Shown here: piece after piece, positions 4,808 through 63,629 of the stretch
How the letters are laid out: the number at the start of each line of letters is the position of its first letter
Position numbering within the stretch: the stretch's first letter is position 1
Origin: Planctomycetaceae bacterium
GTDB taxonomy: Bacteria > Planctomycetota > PLA2
Assembly: GCA_052388375.1 (NCBI GenBank)
Contig: JBQTIG010000081.1
Coordinates: 20,215 to 84,214, forward strand
DNA: 64,000 nucleotides
Direction: 5' to 3'
Position numbers and translations under genes: made by a program
Notes under the pieces: generated by a model
Seen by the model: the letters and a program-made list of their open reading frames with translations, nothing else
Told to the model about the DNA's origin: nothing
Databases searched by the model: none

Positions 4808-7800
4808 CTACCGGTCCTTCTCCGAGTAGTGGTTGAGAATGTAGTCGCGGAGCGCGCGCAGCTGCTCCTCCGCGGCGGCGTCGAAGAACTGCGGGTCCTG
4901 CGCCTGGCCCTTGGCGAAGAAGGAGGGCATGGCGGTTCCCGGCTGCAGCTTGCCGGGGTTCCAGAGCCACTTCTCGATCCACTCCGCGCGCAGACGCCCC
5001 TCCCGGGTGTGGCGGAAATCCGGCGCCCGGTTGCCGATGGGGACCTTGGGATCGGTGCTGTGGCAGGACTTGCACTGGTACTCGGTGAACATCGCATTGG
5101 CCATCTCCCGCCGCGTCGTGACCGTACGATCCACCTTCTTCGCGCGGTCGTCCGGGTCGCCGACCTTGAGGCGCGCCGCGGCGGCCAGGGGGATCTCCTT
5201 GCCCTCCCGCAGGAGCCCGTCCGCCGCCTTCTCCTCGAAAGGATAGGGGACTCCGCTCAGCGCCGCGAAATAGGCCACGAGCGCCCGGTCCTCGGCGTCG
5301 GTGAAGTGGAACGTGGGCATGCGGATCGAGTGCCAGGGACGGATCTCGTACGGAGTCTTGAAGAACTCGAAGAGCCACGCGGGGCGGGTCTTGAGCCCCT
5401 GGCCGAGCAGGTCGGGCGGGCGCCACTTCGCCTCCGCGATGGCGGGCCAGACGTCCGCTCCCTTCCCCTCGATGATGTGGCACGCCTGGCAGTTGTAGCG
5501 GCTCACCACCTTGCGCCCCTCGAGGATCACCCGCTGGCGCGCGTCGGGCTTGAAGGACGCCGCGTCCACCGGGTCCTCCACCAGCCCGAGGAGGAAGATC
5601 GACAAATCGTGCGCCTCCTCCGGCGTGAAATCGAAGCGGGGCATCTTGAGCCGGTCCAGGGGCAGGTCCGCCCGCGGCATTCCGAGGTCGTAGATGCGCG
5701 GGTTGACCATCTTGGCGTAGGCGAACTCGAACCGTCCGTGCTCGATGGGCGCGTGGTTGAACTCGAGCCGCTCGATGGACTTGCTCCCCCACTTCGTCAG
5801 CTCGGTCCCGATCGGCGTCGCGTCCTTGAAGGACTCCATCTGGTGGCACCCGAAGCAGCCGTAGTGCGCGACTAGCTTTCGGCCCACGTACTGCGTGCGG
5901 TCCTCCTCGCTCATGCCGGCGACGATCCGGATCGCATCTTTCGTCGATTCCTGCTGCTCGGATACCTTGAGCTCCTCGGCGATCCGGCGCAAGATGCCCT
6001 GGTCGCCGGTCACCGGGTCGGAGCTCCGCAGCGCCTCGAACTCCGGATTCTTGAGCGTCATCAGGTAGGCGGCGATGTCGCGCGCCTCTTCGTCGGTGAG
6101 ACGCAGATCGGGCATGCTGGTGTCATGCCAGTACCCGCGCGGATCCTTGAGCCACGCGACCAGCCAGGAGGCCTTCACCTTCGAGCCGATGCCCCCCAGC
6201 GCCGGTCCGTGCTGGCGCGACATGCGGTCGCCCCAGCCGTAGAGGCGCTGCGTCCTTGGGTCGGTCCAGGCGCGGAGCTTGTCCGCCGCGATCGCCAGCT
6301 CCGGCGTCGCGAGCGGCACGTCGTGACAGGCGATGCAGGCCTTGGCCTGCCCGCCGCTCGCGCCGTAGTCGCCGACGATGAGCCGCTCGCCCTTCTTGGG
6401 ATCGCCGAGGACCGGCGTCTCCCCCGCCCCCCCCTTCGCCTGCGCGAGGAGGTACTGGACGATGGCGTAGGCTTCCGACTCGCCCCACGCCTTGCCGTCC
6501 ACCGGCTCGGTCCGGTAGCCCCCCTCGGCGAAGCGGTAGCTGAAGGTGTGGCTGTTGTTGGAGAGTTCCCAGAACCGCGGCATGCGCGTGTCGGGACGGA
6601 ACGCCTTGGGGTTGTACACCCACTGCAGCAGGAACGCTTCGTCCGTCTTCGCCGTGATCGGGTCGAGGGGCGGACCGACCTTGGGACGCTGACCCTGCAT
6701 GAGCGGGTAGATGACGGGATCGAGCTTGTGGCAGCCGTAACAGCCGAAGCGGAGGAAGTTGTCCTGGCCGCGCTCGAGTTGCGACGGGCGGTAGGGCGCC
6801 TTCTTCTCGGGGATGAGGATGCGCCGCGAGGTGTCCAGGTCGGGGTCGTTGTTGAACTCCCGTGCGTGGTCCTCGTAGTCGAGGGTGTCGGGCAGCCCCT
6901 CCCGCGGCGCGCCAAGATGCGCGTGGAGGTACTCCTCTTCGGGCGAGGCGTAGACGCCGTCCTTGTGGCACTTGAGGCAGGAGGATTGGACGAGGGCGAG
7001 CGGGAGCTGCGGGTAGTTCCAGTACTGCAGCTCGGTCTTCGTGCGGCCGAGCCCTTTCCAGCGCGCCTCGGTCGCTTGGTCGGGGACGAGGCCCTCGTGG
7101 ACACTCCAGGCCCCGTCGTGGCCCGCCTGCATCGCCTCCTCGAGGGTCATTTGCGCATTGGCGGGCAGGTGCCGGTGCTCGGCGTGGACGCGCTCCGTCG
7201 TCATCCAATCGTCGACCGCGAGAAGCGGCGGGGTGTGCCAGGCGCGGCCGAAATCGGTCGACCAGCCGCGGCCCAGGTGGCAGACGGTGCAGCCGAACGT
7301 CTCGTAGGGGTGCGGGGAGTCGGAGCCCACCATCGACTCCATGTGGGGGTGGGCGCGCCAGTGGCTCGCCATCCCCTGGAGCGCGGCGAGGTAGTAGTCG
7401 CCGACGGAACGGCCCTTGGGGGACTCCTTCCAGGTGCCGTCCTCGAGCCGCTCGAAGCGGCGCCACACCTTGCTGGAGGTCCTTTCGTCGAGGCCGATCG
7501 TGCCGTCGCTGTCGTCGTAGCTCTCAAAGAGGGTGTCCAGCGCGGCGTGGTGGATCGCCACCGTGCGCAGGAGCCCCTCCTCGTGCGGGAAGCGGGAATC
7601 CGGGGGCACCTTGGGCCAGATCGACTCCAGCAGGCCGAAGACGAAGCGGTAGACCGCCTGCTCGAACTTCTCGACCTTCGTCGGGTCCCCCGCCGGCAGC
7701 GCGAGGATCTCCACCGGCCACTTCTCCGGCTCGAACCCGGCGCGCGCGATCCCGATGTGGCATGTGCCGCAGCGGTCCACCTTCTTCGGCGTCGCGAACT

Positions 7801-52711: not shown

Positions 52712-53266
52712 ATGGCAGGCCCGATCACGCAGGTCCTCCTCGACGTGCAGCGCGGCACCCCCGGCGCGCGCGATGAGCTGTTTCGGCTCTCGTACGAGGC
52801 GCTGAAGCGGCTCGCCAACGCGCAGATGCGCGACCAGCCGCAGGGGCACACGCTCCAGCCGACCGCGCTCGTCAACGAGGCATGCCTCAGGCTCCTCGGG
52901 AGCAGCGCGGAGGTCTACCGTGACCGCGGCGTCTTCTTCTCGGTCGCGTCGAAGGCGATGAGGTCGATCCTCGTCGACTGGGCGCGCGCGAAGGGCGCGC
53001 TCAAGCGGGGCGGTCCGCGCGCGCAGGTCACCTGGCGCGAGGACCTCGCGACCTGGGCGCCGTCGGCCGAGGAGGTGCTGTCGGTCCACGACGCGCTCGA
53101 GAAGCTCGAGGGGATCGACCCGTCGCTCGCGAGGGTCGTGGACCTCCGCTTCTTCGCCGGCCTCTCGGCGGCGGAGGCCGCGTGCGCCATGGAGGTGAGC
53201 GAGCGCCACCTCTTCTCGCTCTGGGAGCACGCGCGGGCCTGGCTCTTCCGGGAGCTGCACGCGTGA
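52712..53266 (+). CDS. ECF-type RNA polymerase sigma factor of the Ser/Thr-kinase-associated group (TIGR02999-like)
   Basis: MAGPITQVLLDVQRGTPGARDELFRLSYEALKRLA...LQPTALVNEACLRL... C-terminal region-4 HTH. Its stop TGA (53264-53266) overlaps the GTG of the kinase gene. Confidence 0.7.
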   Translation: MAGPITQVLLDVQRGTPGARDELFRLSYEALKRLANAQMRDQPQGHTLQPTALVNEACLRLLGSSAEVYRDRGVFFSVASKAMRSILVDWARAKGALKRGGPRAQVTWREDLATWAPSAEEVLSVHDALEKLEGIDPSLARVVDLRFFAGLSAAEAACAMEVSERHLFSLWEHARAWLFRELHA

Positions 53267-56200
53267 ACGCGGAGCGGGTGCGGGAGGTGATGGAGGGGGC
53301 GCTCGCACGCGACACCGACGAGATCCCGCGCTTTCTCGACGAGAGCTGCGGTCCGGACGCAGAGCTCCGGGCCGACGTGGAGTCGCTGCTCGCGGCGCGC
53401 AAGCGGATGGGCCGCTACCTCGAAATGCCCGCCGCAGCGGCGCTCGCGCGCGACGCGGAGCTCGCCCCCGGCCAGCGCGTCGGCGGCTACGAGATCCTCG
53501 GCGTGATCGGCCGCGGCGGCAGCGGCGTCGTCTACCGCGCGCGCCAGAAGAGCCCCGATCGCGTCGTCGCCCTCAAGACGTTGCGGCTGCGGCTCGGAGG
53601 CGACGAGGCACGCTTCCTCGATGAGACGCAGACGCTGGCCCGCTTCCGGCATCCGGCGATCGCGCACATCTACGAGGCGGGGGTGCACGAGGGCGTGCCC
53701 TTCTTCTCGATGGAATTCGTGGAGGGCCCTGGAACCATCGTGGACTACGCGCTGGCGCACGGGCTCGACGCGCGAGCGCGGCTCGAGCTCCTCGCGCGGG
53801 TCGCGGACGGTGTCCACTACGGCCACCAGCGCGGCGTCATCCACTGCGACCTCAAACCGGGGAACATCCTCGTCGGCGACGACGGGGCGCCGCGGATCGT
53901 GGACTTCGGGATTGCGCGCACCGGCGTCATGAACGAGGGCGACACCGAGCTCAGGGGCACGCTCCGGTACATGAGCCCGGAGCAGTGCCAGGGCGGCGCG
54001 GAGCCTGTGGACGTGCGCTCCGACGTCTACGCGCTCGGCGTCGTCCTCTACGAGCTGCTCACCGGCCGCCTGCCGATCGACGTCTCCTCGGGGTCGATCA
54101 CGCAAGCGCGCCGGCGGATCCTCGGCGAGGCGCCCGTCCGCATCGAGAGCGTCGCGCCGCGGTTCAGGGGCGACGTCGCCGCGATCGTGCACAAGGCGCT
54201 TGAGAAGGACCGCGAACGGCGCTACGCGTCGGCTGCGGCGCTGGCGGACGATCTCCGCCGCCACCTGACCGACCGGGTGGTCGAGGCCGCCCCCGCGGGC
54301 GTCTGGGTGCAGGTCCGGAAGTTCGCGAGGCGCCAGCGCCTCGCCTTCCTCTCGTTCGCGACCCTGGGCGTCGTCCTCGCAGCGGCGGCCGCCGTGAGCA
54401 GCTGGCTCGCAGTCGAGTACCGCGACCAGCGGACCGCGGCGCAGTATGAGGCGTACCTCGCCAACGTCGCGGCCGCCGCGGCGGCGCTCGAGGGAGGCGA
54501 CGTCGGCGAGGCCACGCTGCGCCTCGACCACGCGCGCGAGGCCTTTCGGGGATGGGAGTGGCACCACCTCCGAAGCAGGCTCGACACGAGCGTGGCGACG
54601 GTCGAGTGGCCCGGCGTCGGGATCGGGGGGGGCGCGCTCAGCGCGGACGGGCGGACGCTCGTGGCCGCGGCCGGAGCCCTTCGCGCGTGGGAGCTGGCCG
54701 CCGAGCGCGTGTTGTTCACCGTCCCGAGGGAGCCGGGGCGCCGCGCCGACGTCGTCGCCCTCTCGCCGGACGGCCAGCGGATCGTCACGGGGTACGGCAG
54801 CGGGCGGGTCGATGTCCGAAGCGCGCGGACCGGGGAGGTCCTCGCGGTCGCGGGGCGACACGAGAAGCAGGTGAGCATGGTGTCGTTCCACCCCGACGGA
54901 ACGCGCTTCGCTTCGGCGGCGTACGACGGCACGGTCCGGATTTCCGACGCTGCGACCGGCGCCTTGCTCGCCACGATTCGCGCCCATCCCGGCGTGCTGC
55001 TCGCGGTCCGTTACGACCGGACGGGCACGCGGATCGCGACCGGCGGGGACGACGGCCGCGCGCGCGTGTTCGCGGCCGACTCGGGCGAGCCGCTCGCGTT
55101 ACTCTCCGGACACGAGAGCCACGTCGAGGACGTTGCCTTCAGTCCGGACGGCAAGAGGCTCGTGTCGGCGTCGATGGACCAGACGCTCCGGCTGTGGGAC
55201 ATCGCCTCCTCTACGATGCTCGCGGTGCGCCCGGCGCACAAGAGCGGGGTCAAGGGCGTTGCGTGGAGCCCGGACGGCCGGACGATCGCGAGCTGCTCCA
55301 TCGACAGCACCGTCCGCCTCTGGAACGCGGACGACCTCTCGGCGATCGCGACCTATCGGGGACACCGGGCGCGCGTCTACCAGGTGGAGTACGCGACGGA
55401 CGGCGCGCGGATCGCGTCGTTTTCGGGGGACGGGACCGTCAGGCTCTGGGATGTCGCCAGGAGTGACGATGTCCCTTGGCTCAAGAGCCGCGGAGGCCGC
55501 GTCGGCGCCCTCGCGTTCTCGTCCGACGGCGAGCTCGTGGCTCTTGCCGCAGCGAACGGATCGATCGAGCTCTGGAGCGCCTCCTCGGGCGCGCTGGTCC
55601 GGACGCTCGCAGGCGGCGCGCCCGCGTCAGCCGTTCGGTTCCTGGACGGGTCGCGCCGCGTCGTGGCCATCCTTCCGCGCAAGGTCGCCTCCTGGACCGT
55701 CGAGAACGGGGCGGCCGAGCCCCAGCGCGCCGTGTCCGTCGACCTCCACGGCGCCCTGATCGCGGCGGACGGACGAATCGTCGCCTGGCACGAGGGCGAC
55801 GTGCTGGAGCTCGACGCCGCGACAGGCGCGGTGCTCTCGCGCTGGAACGCGCACTCGGAACCCGTACGCGCCGCGGCCCTTCATGAGGGTCGGGGCTGGC
55901 TCGTGACCGTCTCCCTCTCGGGCGAGGTCCGGCTCTGGCACCGGTCGGGGGGAGATCCGGTCGCGATGGTTTCGGTGCCCGACGCGAGAGCGCCCACGCT
56001 CGCATTCCATCCGGACGGAGAGCTGGTCGTCGTCGGGTTCGCGAACGGCACTGCAACGCTTCTCTCCGTCCCCGGCCTCGCGACCAAGGCCACGTTCGTC
56101 ACGGGCTCGCAGCTCCAGGTCGTGGAGTTCTCCCCCGACGGCAGCCGCCTCGCTGCTTGCTCTGGGGACGGGACGTTCCAGCTCTGGGACCCCTCGACCG

Positions 56201-56337
56201 CGCGGCAGGCGGTCGCGCTCCGCGGCCACCGCTACGCCGTGAGCGCCGTCGCGTGGAGCCCGGACGGGCGCTCCATCGCGACGGCGGAGAACTTCACCGA
56301 CATCGTGCGGTTCTGGCGGTCGGAACCGGCGCGCTGA
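53263..56337 (+). CDS. Ser/Thr protein kinase with a TM segment and a C-terminal WD40 beta-propeller (about 12+ repeats)
   Basis: GTG 53263, or ATG 53290. Kinase motifs GRGGSGVVYRA, VALK, HCDLKPGNIL, DFGIA. A TM helix (LAFLSFATLGVVLAAAAAVSSWLAV) then WD40 repeats (SPDG.R..TG..DG.VR.W). Confidence 0.85.
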   Translation: MNAERVREVMEGALARDTDEIPRFLDESCGPDAELRADVESLLAARKRMGRYLEMPAAAALARDAELAPGQRVGGYEILGVIGRGGSGVVYRARQKSPDRVVALKTLRLRLGGDEARFLDETQTLARFRHPAIAHIYEAGVHEGVPFFSMEFVEGPGTIVDYALAHGLDARARLELLARVADGVHYGHQRGVIHCDLKPGNILVGDDGAPRIVDFGIARTGVMNEGDTELRGTLRYMSPEQCQGGAEPVDVRSDVYALGVVLYELLTGRLPIDVSSGSITQARRRILGEAPVRIESVAPRFRGDVAAIVHKALEKDRERRYASAAALADDLRRHLTDRVVEAAPAGVWVQVRKFARRQRLAFLSFATLGVVLAAAAAVSSWLAVEYRDQRTAAQYEAYLANVAAAAAALEGGDVGEATLRLDHAREAFRGWEWHHLRSRLDTSVATVEWPGVGIGGGALSADGRTLVAAAGALRAWELAAERVLFTVPREPGRRADVVALSPDGQRIVTGYGSGRVDVRSARTGEVLAVAGRHEKQVSMVSFHPDGTRFASAAYDGTVRISDAATGALLATIRAHPGVLLAVRYDRTGTRIATGGDDGRARVFAADSGEPLALLSGHESHVEDVAFSPDGKRLVSASMDQTLRLWDIASSTMLAVRPAHKSGVKGVAWSPDGRTIASCSIDSTVRLWNADDLSAIATYRGHRARVYQVEYATDGARIASFSGDGTVRLWDVARSDDVPWLKSRGGRVGALAFSSDGELVALAAANGSIELWSASSGALVRTLAGGAPASAVRFLDGSRRVVAILPRKVASWTVENGAAEPQRAVSVDLHGALIAADGRIVAWHEGDVLELDAATGAVLSRWNAHSEPVRAAALHEGRGWLVTVSLSGEVRLWHRSGGDPVAMVSVPDARAPTLAFHPDGELVVVGFANGTATLLSVPGLATKATFVTGSQLQVVEFSPDGSRLAACSGDGTFQLWDPSTARQAVALRGHRYAVSAVAWSPDGRSIATAENFTDIVRFWRSEPAR

Positions 56338-56340
56338 AGG

Positions 56341-56369
56341 CCGGGGCCGCCGACGCCCGGCGGCCCCGG
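56341..56369. terminator. GC hairpin (ccggggccgccg-acgc-ccggcggccccgg) between convergent kinase and beta-propeller lipoprotein genes
   Basis: Near-perfect 12-bp inverted repeat seen in the sequence. Confidence 0.5.
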
Positions 56370-56374
56370 TGGAT

Positions 56375-56585
56375 CTCTGCGCTACGGGAGCCGCCCGAAC
56401 CCCCAGTCCGGCTCGGTGCTGCTGCCGTCCGGCTGGTTCGGGATCTCCGCGGCGTTGCTGTTGGTCCCGGTGGCATCGACGAGCCAGAGTCGGGCCGGAC
56501 TCAACTCGTTGTTCTGGCGCGCGAAGACGATGCGGTCCGACATCGGCGACCACGACGGCGTGAGGTCGGACTGGTGCGCCCCGCC
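56375..56585. repeat. About 200-bp direct repeat, copy A (3' end of the beta-propeller lipoprotein gene)
   Basis: About 85% identical to 60392-60595 in the same orientation. The copies are 4020 bp apart. Confidence 0.7.
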
Positions 56586-59500
56586 GGCGGTCACGTTCGC
56601 AGGGCCGCTGCCCGCGCTGTCCGTCCTGACGATCCGCAACCGCCCGACGCTCCCGTAGCGCTGGAGCACGAACCCCACGGGCCCCCAGTCGACCGACCAG
56701 TCGAGCCCTAAACTCTCGCCGATGATCGTCGGCGCCGTCGCGCCGTCCGCGGGCACTACGTACTTCGCCCCGGAATTGCAATACGCGATCCTCGCCCCGT
56801 CCGGAGACCATGAGAGGTGCTCGATATCCCGGTGCGGGAGAGTGCTGATCTCGACCGGCGGCGTCCCCGGCGGCATGCCGAGGTCGAAGATCAAGATCCG
56901 GTCGAAGTACCCCGCGTCCCCTACCGCGCACGCCACCTTGCGCAGGCCCGCGACCGGCGACCACGCCGGGTCGCGTGCCGAGCGCTGGCCGGTGAAGTTG
57001 GTCAGCGGCGTCACGGGGGGCGGCGCCGGATCGGCGCCGTTGAAGGGCATCACCATGAGGTCGAAGTGCGTGCCGCCGCCCTCGCTGTTGCTGACGAACG
57101 CGATCTGTGCACGGTCCGGCGACCAGGCGGGGTCCCAGTCCTCCCGAACGTTGACCGTCAGCTGCCGCCGGCCGCCGCCCGCGGCGTCGATGACCCAGAT
57201 CTCCGTGTCCTCGCCGAGGGCAGGCGGCTTGTTCGAGAAGACGATGAGGTCCGCCGGCTCGGCCGGAGGCGGGCCAGGGGGCGGCGGCTCCTCGGTATCG
57301 GGAGGGGGCGTCGTGAATCCGAGGCACTGGCGGGCGACAACCGTGTCGGTCACCGGCAACGACGGCGTCACGACCTCGATGATGTCCTCGAAGGGAGGCG
57401 CCTCCGGCGCGGTCGCGGAGGGCGCCTGTACCTCGACATCCACCTCGAACGGCAAAGTCTCCCCGCCCTCGACGCGCTCGAGCTCGGCCTGACAGCGGCC
57501 GTCAGCGGCGATGTGACCATCGGGTCCGACACGGAGGACCCAGGCGTCCCCGCGCACCTCCACGGAATCGGAGCGTCCGACCAGCAGCGCGCCGCCGGGG
57601 ACCGCCCGGAGACCGGACAGCCTCTCGTCCAGCATACCTCCGTAGGCCTGCGCCCAATCCCAGCCTCCCGTCGCGCTGACGCGCATGAGAATCCAGTCTT
57701 GGCCGCTGGGGCGCATGAGAGGCTTGTTTTCGCCGGTGACCGGGTCCATGCCGAAGTCGTTCTCGATCGTGGCCGCGACATAGACATCGCCCTCGGAGCC
57801 TCGGACGACACGATACGAGCCTTCGCCGATCACCCAAGGCGCGTCCCACCTCCGCATCGACGCGTGGCGAATCGCCCCGTCCGGCGCCATGTCGACGACG
57901 AACACATGAGGCGTCTCGCTGAACGCCCCGCCGTTGCTTCGCACCGCTCCTGCGAACAGCGCGCCTTGGCGATCGATTGTGCAGACAGCCGCGACCGGGC
58001 TGACCTCGGAACCTGGCGCGGGACCGGCAACGGACCCAAAGAACCGCACACGATACGACGAACGCGCGCTTCCGTCCTGGTCGAACGCCTGTACCTCGAA
58101 CCCGGAGTCGACGGCGCTCACGGTGGCGAACTCCGCCGGCGCGGTCGCGCCGAGCGCGAAGAGCTTGGTCTGCCAGGAGCCGGGAACGGCAATCCGCCAT
58201 GCAGCCTCGCCGTTGCCGAGAATGCGAGTCACCAGGACCGTCGCGTTGTCCTTCCCATGCGCCAGCAGGACACTCGCATCGGCAAGCACGGCCGACGAGG
58301 CGGGGGGTCGTCGGGCCTCGGCGGTCCTCACGAGCCTGGACCAGACGGGGAGGCCCGTGACGTCGAGGCGCGCGATCCACGGCCCGAACTGTTCGTAGTC
58401 GAACTCCCAGGATCCGATGAGCACGTAGCCGTCGTGGTGCTTTCGCGCCGGGTCAATGGCGAGCAGGTGAACATCATGGACCCTCTCGCGATCAGGACCG
58501 TCTGCCGAATGGAACGCGTTGGCATCCCAGATCATGGCCAGCGCGGCGTCGAGGCGGCGGACGCGGCCGCTGCGGGACCAGATGCACGTCTCTCCGTCCG
58601 CATCCCGAGTGACGCGGTCACCGTCGCCGAGGTCGAGAATCTCCTCCCCAGCCGCCTCCCAGTTGAGACGCACCCTTCTGACGCCCGTCTCGCGGCCAGG
58701 CCCGTAGAGCTCGGTGTACTCGACATCCCCATCCATGTGCGAAGTCACCGCCACCCGAACGTCTAGGTAAACGACGCGGTTGAACCCGTTCGCAGGGGCG
58801 AGTGGCCGCGCCTGGAGGCGCCCACCGTCTTGGGGATCGAACCGTATGAGCCAGTTCGTCGCAGAGCGGAAGTCCCACAGGACTCCAACGAACTCGCAAG
58901 ACGCGCCCGCCGGGCACGGCGCGATGCCCGCGCCTACGACCGAGTACCTGCCGAGGTCGCCGAACTCTGAGTACCAGAGCTCCCGACCATCCTGCTCGTA
59001 GAGCGCCGCAAAGACCTCGTCTCCGCTCCCCTCCGGGAAGGTCGAACTGTAGGTCCTCCCCAGCAGGAAGAGCCGGCCCAGCTCGTTGACCGCCCCGGCC
59101 ACCGCGTCGAAGTTACCCTCGAAGGTATGCCACCGGACGACTCCGCCGGAGTCGATCCGCCCGAAGCGCGTGCTCTCTTCCACCGCTGTCAGCCCAACGT
59201 TCGAAAACGTCCCGCGGGCCCAGAAGTAGACGTCCGAGTTCCCGCCGACGGCGACACCCAGCTTCACGGGCCGGTCATGCAGGCTGGGGTACTCGTGCAC
59301 GTATTCACGTATGTCGTCCACGATCTGGCGCTGCCACAAGACGTCGCCGTTCGGCGCCAGCCTGGCTACCCAAGGCACACGCACGGTGTACGCGGCCGCT
59401 ACCCTGGGGTCGGGATCGATGTCGATGCGCGCGTGCGAGACGGCCGCGAGCACGAGGCCCCCGTCGGGGGTGGACTGGGCGTCCTCAAGGAAGTCGTCCG

Positions 59501-59996
59501 GCTTCTCATCGGCAAAGTACAGATGCTCACCGGCCACACTGTCGAGGCCATACCGGCGCTGCCACGCGATTCGGCCGGCCCCGTCGATGTAGGTCACGAT
59601 GAGATCCACGCTGCTGGAACCTCCCTCGTGGGCTATTGCGCTCTTGTCCGGAGGTTCCGGCAACAACGTAGAGACCACAAAGGCGGCCCCCAGGGATGCC
59701 GGCACCACCACGGTGTCCTCCTGCGACCCGCCGGATCGTCCGAGGACGCGCTCCCATAGCGGGTCGCCGTAGGCGTCCAGGCCGACCACCCACGCGTCCA
59801 TGTTGCTCGTGCCCACGGCATCGCGCGTGGCTGCCACGACGTGGCTTCCGTCCGGAAGCACCTCGCCTGAGGCGGCGGCGTCCCGGAGCAGGGCGCCGTA
59901 CGACTTGGCCCACGTCGGCTCGCTGCTGGACCCCTCGGCGCATCCTTGCAGGAACGCCAAGGCGGCGCAGGCGACGAAGATGGTTGACCGCCCCAT
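56382..59996 (-). CDS. Giant lipoprotein with beta-propeller repeats and a TolB-like (PD40) C-terminal region
   Basis: 1204 aa. Signal peptide plus lipobox (AALAFLQGC). Repeated beta-strand-rich units. The C-terminus has WSPDG/WSPM...RIVF repeats typical of PD40/TolB-like propellers. Confidence 0.6.
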   Translation of the reverse strand: MGRSTIFVACAALAFLQGCAEGSSSEPTWAKSYGALLRDAAASGEVLPDGSHVVAATRDAVGTSNMDAWVVGLDAYGDPLWERVLGRSGGSQEDTVVVPASLGAAFVVSTLLPEPPDKSAIAHEGGSSSVDLIVTYIDGAGRIAWQRRYGLDSVAGEHLYFADEKPDDFLEDAQSTPDGGLVLAAVSHARIDIDPDPRVAAAYTVRVPWVARLAPNGDVLWQRQIVDDIREYVHEYPSLHDRPVKLGVAVGGNSDVYFWARGTFSNVGLTAVEESTRFGRIDSGGVVRWHTFEGNFDAVAGAVNELGRLFLLGRTYSSTFPEGSGDEVFAALYEQDGRELWYSEFGDLGRYSVVGAGIAPCPAGASCEFVGVLWDFRSATNWLIRFDPQDGGRLQARPLAPANGFNRVVYLDVRVAVTSHMDGDVEYTELYGPGRETGVRRVRLNWEAAGEEILDLGDGDRVTRDADGETCIWSRSGRVRRLDAALAMIWDANAFHSADGPDRERVHDVHLLAIDPARKHHDGYVLIGSWEFDYEQFGPWIARLDVTGLPVWSRLVRTAEARRPPASSAVLADASVLLAHGKDNATVLVTRILGNGEAAWRIAVPGSWQTKLFALGATAPAEFATVSAVDSGFEVQAFDQDGSARSSYRVRFFGSVAGPAPGSEVSPVAAVCTIDRQGALFAGAVRSNGGAFSETPHVFVVDMAPDGAIRHASMRRWDAPWVIGEGSYRVVRGSEGDVYVAATIENDFGMDPVTGENKPLMRPSGQDWILMRVSATGGWDWAQAYGGMLDERLSGLRAVPGGALLVGRSDSVEVRGDAWVLRVGPDGHIAADGRCQAELERVEGGETLPFEVDVEVQAPSATAPEAPPFEDIIEVVTPSLPVTDTVVARQCLGFTTPPPDTEEPPPPGPPPAEPADLIVFSNKPPALGEDTEIWVIDAAGGGRRQLTVNVREDWDPAWSPDRAQIAFVSNSEGGGTHFDLMVMPFNGADPAPPPVTPLTNFTGQRSARDPAWSPVAGLRKVACAVGDAGYFDRILIFDLGMPPGTPPVEISTLPHRDIEHLSWSPDGARIAYCNSGAKYVVPADGATAPTIIGESLGLDWSVDWGPVGFVLQRYGSVGRLRIVRTDSAGSGPANVTAGGAHQSDLTPSWSPMSDRIVFARQNNELSPARLWLVDATGTNSNAAEIPNQPDGSSTEPDWGFGRLP

Positions 59997-60391
59997 GATC
60001 GACCTCCAGTGCGGGTCAGAACTCGAGCACCGCGTTCAATGACCACAGACGGGTTCTGCGCTTCAGGACTGCAGGAGTTCCGAGGCGTCTCGCGAGTTCC
60101 CTTCTGGGCGGCCCCGAGCGGGGCCAGGGGCGGGTCCACGCCGGGCAACGCGGGGCGCCTCCTACGCCCAGCGAACTTGCCCCCGGCCCGCGACCGCCGG
60201 CCCTCCCGGTGCGCGCCGTAGCGCTGGGCTGGGCGCACCGGCCGGCAGCCTTGAGCCAGGGGCAGGCGAGACACGCAAGCACGAAGACAAGATCCCAGAG
60301 AACCGGTGTGTCGACCCGCTAGAACAGCATGTAACGGTTGCTCGTCCTCAAGGCCGGCGGCTGCCTTGGGCGCACTGCATCTGTCTTCGTG

Positions 60392-60595
60392 CTAGGGGAG
60401 CGGCGGTAACCCCCAGTCCGGCTCGGTGTTGCTGCCCGTGGGCTGGTTCGGGATCTCCACAGCGTTGCTGTTGGTCCCGGTGGCATGGACAGGCCATGGC
60501 CGGCCCGGGGTCATCTCGTTGTCCTGGCGCACGAAGACGATGCGGTCCGGGGACGGCGACCACGACCGCGTGAGGTCGGACTGGTGCGCCCCGCC
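60392..60595 (-). pseudogene. Duplicated 3'-terminal fragment of the beta-propeller lipoprotein gene (direct repeat copy B)
   Basis: It encodes ...GGAHQSDLTRSWSPSPDRIVFVRQDNEMTPGRPWPVHATGTNSNAVEIPNQPTGSNTEPDWGLPPLP. The parent C-terminus reads ...GGAHQSDLTPSWSPMSDRIVFARQNNELSPARLWLVDATGTNSNAAEIPNQPDGSSTEPDWGFGRLP. The upstream part of ORF 60392..60898 is unrelated sequence. Confidence 0.6.
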
Positions 60596-60789
60596 ACGAC
60601 TCTCGACGCGCTCAAGGCCACGGCTGACGTTTGTGGATAGGCAGGGATTCTCTTCTTGTTGTCGCTGTCGAACGCCAGGGGGAGGAGCGCGAGGCGGTAG
60701 GGGCCGGCGGCGGCGGCCCGATCGCACACGGCGTCGAGGAGCGCCTGGAGGTCTTGCGCTGCGCGTTCCACGACCTCGATCCCGTCCAG

Positions 60790-60882
60790 CCTCCCCGAGG
60801 ACCAGGCCAATGAGGTGCTGGAGCTGATCGACTCCCTGGAGCAGTTCGACGACGTGCAGCAGGTCTTTCACGCCCTGGCGTG
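60790..60882 (+). pseudogene. 3'-terminal remnant of a YebC/PmpR-family gene
   Basis: + frame: ...SLPEDQANEVLELIDSLEQFDDVQQVFHALA*. It matches the YebC C-terminus (E. coli ...[23 protein letters not shown]...). There is no upstream body. Confidence 0.45.
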
Positions 60883-60917
60883 AGAGCGGGGGAGGCACAG
60901 GAAGGGGGCGGGGACCG

Positions 60918-63629
60918 CTACTTCCTCTCGGCGTCCAGAAACGTCAGCCGGTTCGTGGGCGCCGGCCGCACTTCAAAGCCGTCCAGCCGGAATCCCGTCC
61001 ACTCCTCGGCGCGCCGGAGGCAATCCCCCTTGGGCCAGTAGAGGGGGGCGAGGTTCCAGAGGCGGATCGTCTTGTCCGAAGACCTCGACGCGATCCGGCT
61101 CCCGTCCGGGCTGAACGCGACCGACATCACCGCGTCTGCGTGCCCCTCCAGCCGCGCGACCTCCTTCCCCAAGGAGGCGTCCCAGAGGCGGACAGTCTTG
61201 TCCCAAGACCCCGACGCGAACCGGCTCCCGTCCGGGCTGAACGCGAGGCACGTCACGCCGACCCCGCACGGTGATGTCCAACTGCTACGTGTTGGAGCCG
61301 AACCGATTGCAGCGATCAGCCCGCCCCTCGCTTGCGGGTCATCCTCGATATCGCAAGCGCTCGCGAACAGCAAGGACCTTCCGGCTGGGGATTCCGTTCC
61401 GGCTGCCCGGAAGCCGTATGCCGTCGCTAGATGGTGCTCCGCCTCCGCGAGCGCGCGCGTCTTGTCCTCGGCCAGCCGCGTCGCCCTGTCCCGCTCCCGC
61501 CCCTCCGATTCCGCCAGCCGCGTCGCCCGATCCTCGGCCGCCCGCGCCGCGTTCCGCTGCTTGCGGAGCGAATCCAGGAAGAGCAGCGTCCCCGCCACGA
61601 TCACCACCACCGCCGCCGCCGACGTGATCGCCACCGCCGCGTGCCGTTGCACCCAGAGGCGCAACAGATACCCCAGGCTCGGCGGCCGCGCCGACACCGG
61701 GTTGCCCTGCGCGAATCGCCCCAGATCCTCCGCCAGCGCCGCCGCGCTCGCATACCGGCGCCCAGGGTCCCGCTCCATCGCCTTCCGGATCACCGCGTCC
61801 AGGTCCTTGGGCACGGTCCGCTCCACCTTCCGCGGCGCCGCCGGCGACTCCCGCAGCACCTTCGCCAGGAGCGCCTCCGTCGTCTCCGCCTCGTACGGCG
61901 CCCGACCGGTCGCCAGCTCGTACAGCGTCGCCCCGAGCCCATAAACGTCCGCCCGCGCGTCCACCCTCGTCACCGCGTGCGTCACCTGCTCCGGCGCCGC
62001 GTACTTCAGCGTCCCGAGCACCGCCGCCGGATTGGTCAGCGACGCCTCCCCGGCCACCTTCGCCAGCCCCAGGTCCATCACCACCACCCGCCCGTCCGGC
62101 GTCACCATCAGGTTGGCCGGCTTGATGTCCCGGTGGATCACCCCGCGCTCGTGGAGGTGCTGCAATCCCAGCGCGGCGTCGTGAGAGACCTCCGCGAGCC
62201 GCCGGTACGGATCTCCGGGAGGATGCGGAGGACGGGGGCGGGGCACGGCCGGCAGGCCTCCAAAGGCCTCCGGCATCTCCCTCCTCTTGCGCTCCGACAC
62301 CGTCGAGACCGCGCTCTCGAGGTCCCGGCTCGACCCCTCCTTCAGCGTCTCCGCGACCTCCCTGAGGTCGCACCCCTCCACGTACTCCATCGCGTACCAG
62401 AACAGCCCCTCCGTCCGTCCCGACGCCAGGATCCGCACCACATGAGGGTGGTCGCTGCGCGCCAGCGCCCGCACCTCCCGCGCAAACCGCGCCGCCGCCA
62501 CGTCGTCGCTCGAGAGCGCTGGCGGCATCATCTTCAGCGCCACCAGCCGCCCAAGGCTCCGCTGTCGCGCCAGATAGACCGTCCCCATCCCCCCTTCGCC
62601 CAGCTTCGCCAGGAGGTCGAACTCCCCAAACCGCCGCGCCGTCGCCGGCGCCGCCTCCGCCGCAGGCTCCGGCTGGTCCGACAGGCTCTGCGCCTGGAGC
62701 GCCTTGAGCTTGTCCGCCGTGACCTCCGCGCCCAGCAGCCGCCCCAGGATCCGGCGGTGGTCCTCCAAGAGCTCCGGCGCCGGGGAGGTCTCCCCCGTCA
62801 CGTAGTCCAGATACTCCACCTTCCGCTCGATCTGCGACCGATTCAGGAAGAGCACCCCCTCCTCCGGACCGCCGGAGGCGCACACGAGCAGCGGGTGCAG
62901 GTCGAGCCAGGCCTCGCCCCGCTTCAGGTAGAGGTGGCCCGCCCGGAGCTTCTCCCCGCCTTCCCTCAGCGTCGTCCGCAGCGCGTCGGTGCCCGTGAGG
63001 TCCCATAGCTCGATGGTGCGGGGCCCCGAGCCGGTCTCCCGCACCTCCGCCACGTAGGTCAGCACCGTCCGGCCGAGGAGCGCGACTTTGTCGAGCAGCT
63101 CCACCGCGGCCGCCAGCAGCGCCTCGCCCATCTCCGCGTAGTACCCCTCGTCGCGCACCGCGCCGTGGCCGAGCACCTGATTCCGATAGGCCGGGATGCG
63201 ATTGAGGAAGTCGAGGACCTTGACCTTCCCTCCGGCGCGCTCGCCCATCGCCTTCAGGCAGGCACCGATCGCGGGGAGGTCGTCGCGCGGCTGGAGCAGC
63301 AGCGCCGAGACGCCCGCGATCTCCGGGAACGGGTGCGGCTCGAGCCCTGCCGTCGCAGCTGCAACCTCGCGCAGGAACTCCACCCAGTGCCCCAGGGAGG
63401 GAAGGGCGAGGTTGGCCAGCCGCCTGTCGAGCGCCTCGTCGCGCGCGCCGCCCGCCAGATAGGCCGCGATCTGCGCCGCACCCGCCGCCTTGATGGTGGA
63501 CTCGATCAGGTAGAAGGCGTTGTGGTGCCGGTCGCTGCGCGCCTTGGCGTTGAAGGCCCGCCGGTACAGCCGCGCCAGCGGCAGCGGCAGCCGGTCGCGC
63601 AGATCGGTGCGGAAGCCCTCGATCGCCAT
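60918..63629 (-). CDS. Ser/Thr protein kinase with an about 330-aa N-terminal domain of unknown function and a short C-terminal WD40 segment
   Basis: 903 aa. Kinase motifs LGEGGMGTVYLA, VALK, HRDIKPANLM, DLGLA, APE. A TM helix (AAVAITSAAAVVVIVAGTLLFL). Two WD40 repeats at the C-terminus. I did not recognise the N-terminal domain (MAIEGFRTDLRDRLPLPLARLYRRAFNAKARSDRHHNAFYLIESTIKAAG...). Confidence 0.8.
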   Translation of the reverse strand: MAIEGFRTDLRDRLPLPLARLYRRAFNAKARSDRHHNAFYLIESTIKAAGAAQIAAYLAGGARDEALDRRLANLALPSLGHWVEFLREVAAATAGLEPHPFPEIAGVSALLLQPRDDLPAIGACLKAMGERAGGKVKVLDFLNRIPAYRNQVLGHGAVRDEGYYAEMGEALLAAAVELLDKVALLGRTVLTYVAEVRETGSGPRTIELWDLTGTDALRTTLREGGEKLRAGHLYLKRGEAWLDLHPLLVCASGGPEEGVLFLNRSQIERKVEYLDYVTGETSPAPELLEDHRRILGRLLGAEVTADKLKALQAQSLSDQPEPAAEAAPATARRFGEFDLLAKLGEGGMGTVYLARQRSLGRLVALKMMPPALSSDDVAAARFAREVRALARSDHPHVVRILASGRTEGLFWYAMEYVEGCDLREVAETLKEGSSRDLESAVSTVSERKRREMPEAFGGLPAVPRPRPPHPPGDPYRRLAEVSHDAALGLQHLHERGVIHRDIKPANLMVTPDGRVVVMDLGLAKVAGEASLTNPAAVLGTLKYAAPEQVTHAVTRVDARADVYGLGATLYELATGRAPYEAETTEALLAKVLRESPAAPRKVERTVPKDLDAVIRKAMERDPGRRYASAAALAEDLGRFAQGNPVSARPPSLGYLLRLWVQRHAAVAITSAAAVVVIVAGTLLFLDSLRKQRNAARAAEDRATRLAESEGRERDRATRLAEDKTRALAEAEHHLATAYGFRAAGTESPAGRSLLFASACDIEDDPQARGGLIAAIGSAPTRSSWTSPCGVGVTCLAFSPDGSRFASGSWDKTVRLWDASLGKEVARLEGHADAVMSVAFSPDGSRIASRSSDKTIRLWNLAPLYWPKGDCLRRAEEWTGFRLDGFEVRPAPTNRLTFLDAERK
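61076..61255. repeat. Near-identical tandem DNA repeat encoding consecutive WD40 units inside the kinase gene
   Basis: The units cgacgcgatccggctcccgtccgggctgaacgcgac and cgacgcgaaccggctcccgtccgggctgaacgcgag lie about 120 bp apart. They encode AFSPDGSRIASRSSDKTIRLW and AFSPDGSRFASGSWDKTVRLW. Confidence 0.6.

What the first reader, a model, noticed from the sequence alone, without database searches (positions are those of the whole stretch)
56375..60595. 200-bp direct repeats 4020 bp apart bracketing the body of the propeller-lipoprotein gene
Copy A is the gene's own 3' end. Copy B (60392-60595) lies beyond the gene's 5' end and encodes a decayed duplicate of the last ~70 codons. Direct repeats of this size can mediate RecA-dependent excision or amplification of the intervening 3.8 kb. 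This would act as a switch that deletes or duplicates the lipoprotein, or is the footprint of a past tandem duplication.
Basis: seen in the sequence. Interest (0 to 1): 0.55.

Follow-up and report, generated by a model that had tools for sequence, protein, structure and literature searches.

The report
Dead gene fragment, not a switch
The upstream "repeat" is a decaying leftover of the last 69 codons of a duplicated lipoprotein gene, lying in an old rearrangement scar beside a second dead gene fragment; it is ordinary genome debris, not a recombination switch.

Summary
The repeat is real. Window 56374-56585 and 60384-60595 are 212 nt, ungapped, 85% identical and 4010 nt apart (not 4020). Copy A is the last 69 codons, the stop and about 10 nt of a 1204-aa PD40 beta-propeller lipoprotein gene (56382-59996, minus strand). 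Copy B is an in-frame 69-codon remnant 395 nt upstream of that gene's start.

Copy B is dead and decaying:
- With a related metagenomic contig as outgroup, B carries 25 unique substitutions against 7 in A (p=0.0015), spread 5/10/10 over codon positions.
- dN/dS between A and B is 0.73.
- B has lost conserved residues, including several changes to proline.
- No propeller homology lies upstream of B in any frame, and no gene is called there.

B abuts, back-to-back, a 3' remnant of yebC (60774-60883, plus strand). In a relative, the same kinase gene is followed by an intact 240-aa yebC. The region is therefore a rearrangement scar.

Relatives carry tandem arrays of these modular lipoproteins, with similar 3' remnants of the upstream gene (glnA) between array members.

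The "footprint of a past duplication" reading is supported. The "switch" reading is not. Divergence is 15%, the longest identical run is 28 nt, there is no conversion tract, and recombination would irreversibly delete the gene.

The parts
56374..56585 (-). Copy A of the repeat: the last 69 codons, the stop (56382-56384) and about 8-10 nt of 3' flank of the functional lipoprotein gene
   Evidence: GC at codon position 3 is 0.96. Only 7 lineage-specific substitutions against the outgroup L082.
56382..59996 (-). 1204-aa lipoprotein gene (NCBI MAG Planctomycetaceae bacterium, ACT4PV_10860). It has a signal peptide with lipobox Cys19, an N-terminal module of about 900 aa with no Pfam family, a Pro-rich linker, and a PD40/TolB-like beta-propeller (aa ~915-1204).
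59997..60391 (-). 395-nt spacer between the stop of copy B and the ATG of the lipoprotein gene. It is presumed to be the 5' intergenic/promoter region. It shows no homology to relatives, no Rfam hit, and no sigma-70 or terminator consensus.
60384..60601 (-). Copy B: a 5'-truncated pseudogene remnant. It holds 69 codons (60395-60601), a stop (60392-60394) and about 8 nt of 3' flank. The nucleotide repeat as reported is 60384-60595.
   Evidence: dN/dS against A is 0.73. 25 unique substitutions against 7 in A, p=0.0015. No propeller homology upstream in any frame. No gene called here in the Logan annotation.
60602..60773 (.). Junction/filler between the two remnants. 60670-60777 may be a frameshifted, internally deleted continuation of the yebC remnant (IAHGVEERLE-VLRCAFHDL against IDHGLDEM...VLHCAFADL), which is not significant on its own.
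60774..60883 (+). yebC/PmpR 3' remnant: the last ~35 codons plus the stop TGA at 60881-60883. It is 5'-truncated and lies back-to-back with copy B.
   Evidence: Pfam PF01709 positions 130-158/160, E=1.7e-5. NCBIfam NF009044 positions 205-236/239, E=2.5e-6. PDB 1kon residues 207-237. 67% aa identity to the intact yebC of relative L105, and nucleotide homology to L105 stops at 60774.
60918..63629 (-). Ser/Thr kinase with two WD40 blades (903 aa), convergent with the yebC remnant. This architecture is conserved in the relative (P0153, 900 aa, 78% identity), so the gene is not part of the damage.
53182..56337 (+). Ser/Thr kinase-WD40 gene (1051 aa), convergent with the lipoprotein gene. It is syntenic with the propeller domain in relative L082 (82.5% nt identity over window 54193-57256).

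Best explanation
Copy B is a non-functional, neutrally decaying 3' remnant (69 codons plus the stop) of a duplicated copy of the PD40-propeller lipoprotein gene. It is left in a rearrangement scar.

Shown:
- B is truncated at its 5' side.
- B is sister to copy A.
- B evolves about 3.6 times faster than A, with no codon-position bias.
- B abuts, tail-to-tail in the sense of missing 5' ends, a 3' remnant of yebC. That gene is intact at the same position in a relative.

Inferred: the lineage once carried two head-to-tail propeller-lipoprotein genes, as the related contig L002 still does, or a segmental copy whose edge fell 69 codons before a stop. A later rearrangement had one breakpoint in the upstream copy and one in the divergently oriented yebC. 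It was either a single deletion of both 5' parts and the region between them, or an inversion or translocation with those two breakpoints. It left the two stubs.

The 212-nt repeat is therefore a by-product of gene-family expansion and decay. It has no present function. At 85% identity it is at most a very poor substrate for homologous recombination.
For: Truncation and decay of B:
- The repeat is real, and B is in frame with its own stop.
- No propeller homology lies upstream of B in any frame when eight family proteins are searched against the window.
- The rest of ORF 60392-60898(-) has a non-coding GC pattern in that frame (0.87/0.56/0.61). The B part keeps a faded coding pattern, with GC3 of 0.90 against 0.96 in A.
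- No gene is called there.
- dN/dS between A and B is 0.73, and the differences by codon position are 8/14/12.
- In the Tajima relative-rate test with L082 as outgroup, A has 7 unique changes and B has 25 (5/10/10 by codon position); chi-square is 10.1 and p=0.0015.
- By my own reading of the alignment and the sequences, B-specific changes hit positions conserved across the family. They include P->R in the PSWSP motif, L->P twice, S->P, G->P and F->L.

A and B are sisters:
- They share a 6-nt (2-codon) insertion and the GGAH motif. Both are absent from L082 and from P0006, P0007, P0008 and P0010.

The scar:
- The yebC 3' remnant is identified by Pfam, three NCBIfam models and PDB 1kon. All match only the last ~30 profile positions.
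- In relative L105 the orthologous kinase (78% aa identity) is followed by an intact convergent 240-aa yebC. Nucleotide homology to the window (77.6%) stops about 35 codons before the yebC stop.

Precedent in the family:
- L002 carries the tandem paralogues P2up and P0002.
- 3' remnants of the upstream gene glnA sit in front of array members in L002 and L083.

Assembly:
- A second assembly (Logan L001) has the identical structure.
Against: - No reads could be examined, so low-level deletion or amplification variants cannot be excluded.
- B has no internal stop or frameshift. This is weak evidence for function, because 69 codons at 70% G+C often stay open by chance.
- Only 69 codons remain. It therefore cannot be told whether B's parent was a full gene at this locus or a partial copy that was dead on arrival.
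- The relative-rate test depends on L082 being a true outgroup. That is supported by the shared indel and motif, but on few characters.
- The relatives are sparse and come from fragmented metagenomic contigs. The ancestral gene order between yebC and the lipoprotein cluster is not directly seen.
Confidence: 0.85

Rival explanations
1. Recombination switch: RecA-dependent crossover between A and B excises or amplifies the 4-kb unit at a biologically useful frequency, turning the lipoprotein off or raising its dosage.
For: The copies are direct repeats of 212 nt flanking the gene body. Paralogous propeller modules in relatives can be very similar. The L082 and L083 propeller starts are 94% identical in amino acids despite different N-terminal modules. 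This suggests that exchange between propeller-coding segments has occurred in this family.
Against: - Identity is 85%, and the longest perfect runs are 28, 25 and 21 nt.
- Recombination falls log-linearly with divergence, 200-400-fold at about 8% (PMC4824099).
- There is no conversion tract (P=0.22), and B has diverged freely.
- Deletion would remove the promoter and 1135 codons and cannot be reversed (geometry, inference).
- Both assemblies run straight through the region.
Confidence: 0.03
2. Silent donor cassette: B is kept as a template for gene conversion that varies the last propeller blade of the surface lipoprotein, like pilS/pilE or vls cassettes.
For: B is promoterless, in frame, close to the expressed gene and in the same orientation. 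The family is modular and variable between relatives.
Against: - There is only one fragment in 64 kb plus 3 kb of extension.
- The differences are evenly spread, not a mosaic of conserved and variable blocks.
- Many B-specific changes are prolines or losses of invariant residues. These would damage a blade (my reading).
- B's substitution rate looks neutral.
- No conversion tract is seen.
Confidence: 0.03
3. B is the C-terminus of a real small gene (the 168-aa ORF 60392-60898 on the minus strand).
For: An open frame of 168 codons with a GTG start exists.
Against: - The N-terminal 99 codons are antisense to the yebC remnant and have a non-coding GC pattern in that frame.
- There is no Pfam hit.
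- The ORF is not called by the gene finder.
- A 69-residue piece is one propeller blade and a bit, and cannot fold as a propeller (inference).
- Constraint is relaxed.
Confidence: 0.03
4. Assembly artefact: the B/yebC junction is a chimeric join in the MAG contig.
For: MAG contigs can be chimeric. The region joins blocks whose homologues lie on different contigs in relatives.
Against: A second assembler (Logan) gives a 100% identical 9-kb stretch across the junctions. A and B share no exact word longer than 28 nt, so they would not collapse or mis-join in a k-mer graph (inference). Both assemblies probably use the same reads, so this is not fully independent.
Confidence: 0.02

Closest known systems
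Gene remnants (truncated pseudogenes) left by tandem or segmental duplication followed by deletion in bacterial genomes
   Same: It is a partial, 5'-truncated copy of a neighbouring functional gene in the same orientation. Its substitution pattern is neutral. It sits next to a second truncated gene (yebC) at a breakpoint.
   Different: Nothing essential differs. The only local colour is that the parent gene belongs to a modular lipoprotein family. In relatives, the arrays of that family also hold 3' stubs of the upstream gene glnA.
RecA-dependent deletion or amplification between long direct repeats (for example rrn, IS or Rhs-mediated duplications and amplifications)
   Same: The direct orientation and the kilobase-scale spacing are the same.
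   Different: Known active substrates are near-identical repeats, usually of 1 kb or more. Here the repeat is 212 nt at 85% identity, with at most 28-nt perfect blocks and no evidence of exchange.
Silent-cassette gene conversion systems for surface proteins (Neisseria pilS/pilE, Borrelia vls)
   Same: A promoterless partial copy lies near an expressed surface lipoprotein gene.
   Different: There is a single cassette with no conserved/variable mosaic. Its substitutions are damaging and its rate is neutral. No conversion tracts are seen.
TolB/PD40 beta-propeller proteins
   Same: The C-terminal ~290 aa of the gene has PD40 repeats, and copy A/B is its last blade.
   Different: It is not TolB: the scores are far below the TIGR02800 cut-off (49 against 343 bits). 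It is a lipoprotein with an unrelated 900-aa N-terminal module. Only a handful of homologues exist in 1.8 billion representative proteins.

Membership tests
Duplication-derived gene remnant (pseudogene fragment) | Significant homology to part of a functional gene | tested here: met
   212 nt at 85% identity, and 69 aa at 72% identity, E=4e-25
Duplication-derived gene remnant (pseudogene fragment) | Truncated: it lacks a start, a 5' region and most domains | tested here: met
   No homology to any family member upstream of codon 1136 in any frame. The upstream sequence is antisense yebC debris.
Duplication-derived gene remnant (pseudogene fragment) | Relaxed selective constraint relative to the functional copy | tested here: met
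   Relative-rate test gives 25 against 7 unique changes, p=0.0015, with B changes spread 5/10/10 by codon position. dN/dS is 0.73.
Duplication-derived gene remnant (pseudogene fragment) | Intact arrangement seen in relatives | tested here: met
   Tandem intact paralogues are present in L002. An intact yebC lies next to the orthologous kinase in L105. No relative shows both features at one locus, so the match is indirect.
Recombinational on/off or copy-number switch via direct repeats | Repeats similar enough for efficient homologous exchange (near-identical, with long perfect blocks) | tested here: not met
   85% identity, with a longest perfect run of 28 nt. Divergence dependence is taken from PMC4824099.
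Recombinational on/off or copy-number switch via direct repeats | Population heterogeneity: junction reads, circles, or presence/absence among strains | not testable with these tools
   No reads were available. Two assemblies agree. The nearest relative, L082, has a different gene architecture at this site.
Recombinational on/off or copy-number switch via direct repeats | Evidence of past exchange between the copies (homogenised tracts) | tested here: not met
   The longest identical run is not exceptional (P=0.22), and B diverges freely.
Silent-cassette gene conversion system | Several silent cassettes with a conserved/variable mosaic | tested here: not met
   There is only one extra copy in the window plus the L001 extension, and the mismatches are evenly spread.
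YebC/PmpR family (for the neighbouring stub) | Full-length ~240-aa protein with the N-terminal and second/third domains | tested here: not met
   Only profile positions ~205-236 of 239 are present. The intact 240-aa gene is seen in L105.
PD40/TolB-like beta-propeller lipoprotein (for the parent gene) | PD40 repeats, and a signal peptide with a lipobox cysteine | tested here: met
   PF07676 at E=2.4e-11. The N-terminus is ...LAFLQGC, and Cys19 is invariant in P0002. No dedicated lipoprotein predictor was run.

The most novel reading that the evidence does not exclude
The most novel reading not excluded is this. The locus would belong to a recombination-driven, module-shuffling array of surface lipoproteins, in which variable N-terminal modules are joined to interchangeable PD40, RCC1 or PKD C-terminal modules. 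Stubs such as copy B, and the glnA stubs in relatives, would be retained as homology anchors or donor segments for further exchange. They would not be mere debris.
Probability: 0.05. Interest if true: 0.5.

Novelty: already known. Interest (0 to 1): 0.12.

Why it matters
It matters little beyond correct annotation.
- 60384-60601 should be marked as a pseudogene fragment and 60774-60883 as a yebC remnant. Neither is a gene or a regulatory device.
- The case is a useful caution. A sizeable direct repeat around a gene is not in itself a switch. Divergence, a relative-rate test and comparison with relatives separate a live recombination substrate from a fossil.
- The one mildly interesting by-product is the gene family itself. 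It is a rare, modular family of planctomycete-like lipoproteins in tandem arrays that grow by segmental duplication.

Tried and rejected
- Genome-contig scan with the full-length alignment found nothing. With the propeller alignment it found only generic PD40 proteins at about 30% identity.
- The first metagenome-contig scan found nothing. The second gave the useful loci L082 and L083.
- The search for homologous proteins with the 69-aa copy-B peptide returned no candidates.
- Rfam and the promoter/terminator scans over 55900-61200 returned nothing.
- I searched for glnA or its remnants in the window's spacer, by analogy with L002 and L083. There are none.
- I first suspected that the 903-aa kinase with only two WD40 blades had been truncated by the same event. 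I rejected this because the orthologue P0153 has the same 900-aa architecture at 78% identity.
- I first placed the yebC stop at 60894-60896. The correct position is 60881-60883.
- My translation of L083 ORF 6946-9057 as a glutamine synthetase used the wrong frame. The real glnA is L083 5385-6800.
- Extending the yebC remnant back to about 60670 rests on a non-significant alignment (E=0.14) and is only suggested.
- The N-terminal 900 aa of the lipoprotein has no Pfam family even at E<=1.
Full report
**Observation.** The repeat finder on 54000-64000 reports one long two-copy direct family: 56374-56585 and 60384-60595. It is 212 nt, 85% identical, ungapped, with start-to-start spacing of 4010 nt (alignment). 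BLASTN scores the pair at E=2e-59. A tblastn of the whole lipoprotein against the 64-kb window finds no further copy.

Copy A is the last 69 codons, the stop (56382-56384) and about 10 nt of 3' flank of ORF 56382-59996 on the minus strand (1204 aa). Copy B reads in frame as 69 codons plus a stop (60392-60394) and is 72% identical in amino acids to copy A. Its stop lies 395 nt upstream of the gene's ATG.

**The gene.**
- The protein is identical to a hypothetical protein of an NCBI MAG named "Planctomycetaceae bacterium" (ACT4PV_10860).
- It starts MGRSTIFVACAALAFLQGC. This is a signal peptide with a lipobox-like cysteine that is invariant in its homologue.
- It has about 900 residues with no Pfam family, then a proline-rich linker, then a PD40/TolB-like beta-propeller (PF07676; partial TIGR02800).
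- A full HMMER scan of 1.84 billion representative proteins finds only a handful of true relatives. These are another long form (P0002, 1215 aa), N-terminal-module proteins that end in a different tail (P0005, P0020), and short forms of 430-500 aa in which other N-terminal modules carry the same propeller (P0006, P0007, P0011, P0014, P0018).

**Copy B is a truncated, decaying fragment.**
- Eight family proteins searched against the window match B only over their last ~67 residues. Nothing upstream matches in any frame.
- The rest of the 168-codon ORF that contains B (60392-60898, minus strand) has a non-coding GC pattern in that frame (0.87/0.56/0.61). The B part keeps a faded coding signature, with GC3 of 0.90 against 0.96 in A.
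- The gene caller used for the Logan contig calls nothing between the kinase gene and the lipoprotein gene.
- Between A and B, dN/dS is 0.73, and the 34 differences fall 8/14/12 on codon positions 1/2/3.
- L082 is a metagenomic contig whose propeller and neighbouring kinase gene are 82.5% identical to window 54193-57256. With L082 as outgroup, A has 7 unique substitutions and B has 25 (5/10/10 by codon position). L082 has 17. Tajima's relative-rate test gives chi-square 10.1, p=0.0015.
- L082 is a legitimate outgroup. A and B share a 2-codon insertion (ATGTNSNA) and GGAH, where L082/P0007, P0006, P0008 and P0010 have the shorter loop and GGTH.
- By my reading of the alignments, the B-specific changes include P->R in the invariant PSWSP motif, three or four changes to proline in strand positions, and F->L and G->P in the terminal DWGFG motif.
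- B has therefore evolved at roughly 3.6 times the rate of A since they separated. This is what a fragment without function does.
- The longest identical run (28 nt) is what 32 randomly placed mismatches would give (P=0.22). There is no sign of a recent conversion tract.

**The surroundings are a scar.**
- Immediately beyond B's truncated 5' side, on the opposite strand, lies the 3' end of a yebC/PmpR gene: PSSLPEDQANEVLELIDSLEQFDDVQQVFHALA plus a stop (60782-60883).
- It is recognised by Pfam PF01709 (profile positions 130-158 of 160). It is also recognised by three NCBIfam YebC models (positions ~205-236 of 239, E down to 2.5e-6) and by PDB 1kon.
- The two stubs point away from each other, so their missing 5' parts would face each other.
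- The kinase gene next door (60918-63629, minus strand) has an orthologue, P0153 (78% identity, 900 aa), on a JGI contig (L105). There the kinase is followed by an intact, convergent 240-aa yebC.
- Nucleotide homology between L105 and the window (77.6%) runs through the kinase and stops at window 60774, about 35 codons before the yebC stop.
- A weaker, frameshifted similarity (60670-60777) may be further yebC debris.
- In this lineage a rearrangement therefore broke yebC and joined it to the 3' stub of a propeller gene.
- The kinase itself is not damaged. Its odd two-blade WD40 tail is conserved in the orthologue.

**Where B came from.**
- On L002, a contig from another MAG that carries the only long-form homologue, an upstream gene ending in the same propeller (57% identical to A over 298 aa) sits head-to-tail 494 nt before the long-form gene. 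This is the arrangement B and A would have had.
- The family's arrays in relatives are full of similar stubs.
  - In L002, 3' remnants of glnA (38 and 93 codons) precede the second and third lipoprotein genes.
  - In L083, an intact glnA (5385-6800) is followed by a lipoprotein with an RCC1 propeller. After that come a 27-codon glnA stub and then a PD40 lipoprotein.
- These arrays evidently grow by segmental duplication whose edge falls inside the 3' end of the upstream gene.
- Two histories fit B. In the first, a full tandem paralogue lost everything but its last 69 codons, in a deletion or other rearrangement that also took the 5' part of yebC. In the second, a partial copy arrived dead at the edge of a duplicated or moved segment.
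- B's neutral-looking rate over essentially its whole separate history fits early death, but it cannot separate the two histories.

**Why it is not a switch.**
- A crossover between A and B is physically possible, as between any direct repeats. But the copies are 15% diverged, with perfect blocks of at most 28, 25 and 21 nt.
- RecA-mediated exchange falls log-linearly with divergence. It is already down 200-400-fold at about 8% in Bacillus subtilis (PMC4824099). A related preprint abstract gives a log-linear fall up to 15% (10.1101/2020.05.13.090589).
- The product of a deletion would be a promoterless 69-codon hybrid stub, so the change could not be reversed (inference from geometry).
- The two copies show no homogenisation.
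- Two assemblies of the sample run through the region identically. They probably rest on the same reads, and rare variants would not show.

**Comparison with known things.** This is a duplication-derived pseudogene fragment at a rearrangement breakpoint, a well-known kind of bacterial genome debris.
- It resembles live repeat-mediated amplification or deletion substrates only in geometry. It fails the test of repeat similarity and the test of past exchange.
- It resembles silent-cassette systems only in being a promoterless partial copy near a surface-protein gene. It fails on cassette number, mosaic structure and constraint.

**Verdict.** The novelty category is "already known", and interest is low (0.12). 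The residual novel reading is that such stubs serve as homology anchors in a module-shuffling lipoprotein array. It is not excluded, but nothing measured here supports it (probability about 0.05).

Noticed in passing
L002 1301-1399 and 5377-5655; L083 8974-9054 (intact glnA at L083 5385-6800); L082 3-41: In relatives, each lipoprotein gene of the tandem array is preceded by a 3' stub of glutamine synthetase (27, 38 and 93 codons), all ending at the glnA stop. This suggests repeated segmental duplications whose left edge lay inside glnA. The L082 piece is cut by the contig start, so it may be a stub or the real glnA end.
   Followed up: partly
window 57256 (aa ~914 of the lipoprotein) against L082 657; L083 9173-10405: Nucleotide homology between the window and relative L082 (82.5%) stops exactly at the first strand of the propeller domain. 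Upstream, the window has a 900-aa module, L082 has a 150-aa module (437-aa protein P0007), and L083 has a ~280-aa module. The L082 and L083 propeller starts are nevertheless 94% identical in amino acids. The N-terminal modules have been swapped on a conserved propeller, or the propellers have been homogenised.
   Followed up: partly
L083 7142-8893: This is a lipoprotein with the same N-terminal module type as P0006/P0014 (CDFESATFTIVAFEFEY...), but fused to an RCC1-repeat propeller instead of PD40. P0020 and P0005 join the 900-aa module to a PKD-like tail. The family mixes N- and C-terminal modules freely.
   Followed up: no
window 60918-63629 (-): This Ser/Thr kinase has an unannotated N-terminal region of ~330 aa, a TM segment and only two WD40 blades plus a 42-aa tail. 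The same 900-aa architecture is conserved at 78% identity in P0153, so the two-blade form is not an accident of this genome. More distant homologues (P0155, 1489 aa) have full WD40 domains.
   Followed up: partly
window 56127-56284 against 61086-61260: Inverted repeats (50-69 nt, 72-76% complementary) arise from WD40 blades of the two convergent kinase-WD40 genes that flank the lipoprotein locus. They are too diverged to be likely inversion substrates, but they frame the whole 4.6-kb block.
   Followed up: no
window 56382-59296 region (aa 1-~900 of the lipoprotein): The 900-aa N-terminal module has no Pfam family even at E<=1. It has only about three clear relatives (P0002, P0005, P0020) among 1.84 billion representative proteins. 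Weak repeated matches to other proteins at residues ~7-130 hint at a repeat or propeller-like fold. No structure prediction was run.
   Followed up: no
P0005 (1007 aa) against P0020 (334 aa): After the shared poly-proline linker and 'PDPTRNL(N/Q)ISYY(F/Y)PLTPPLTV', P0020 continues as a PKD-like domain. P0005 runs into an Arg/Ser-rich tail. This looks like a frameshift or sequencing error in P0005's gene.
   Followed up: no
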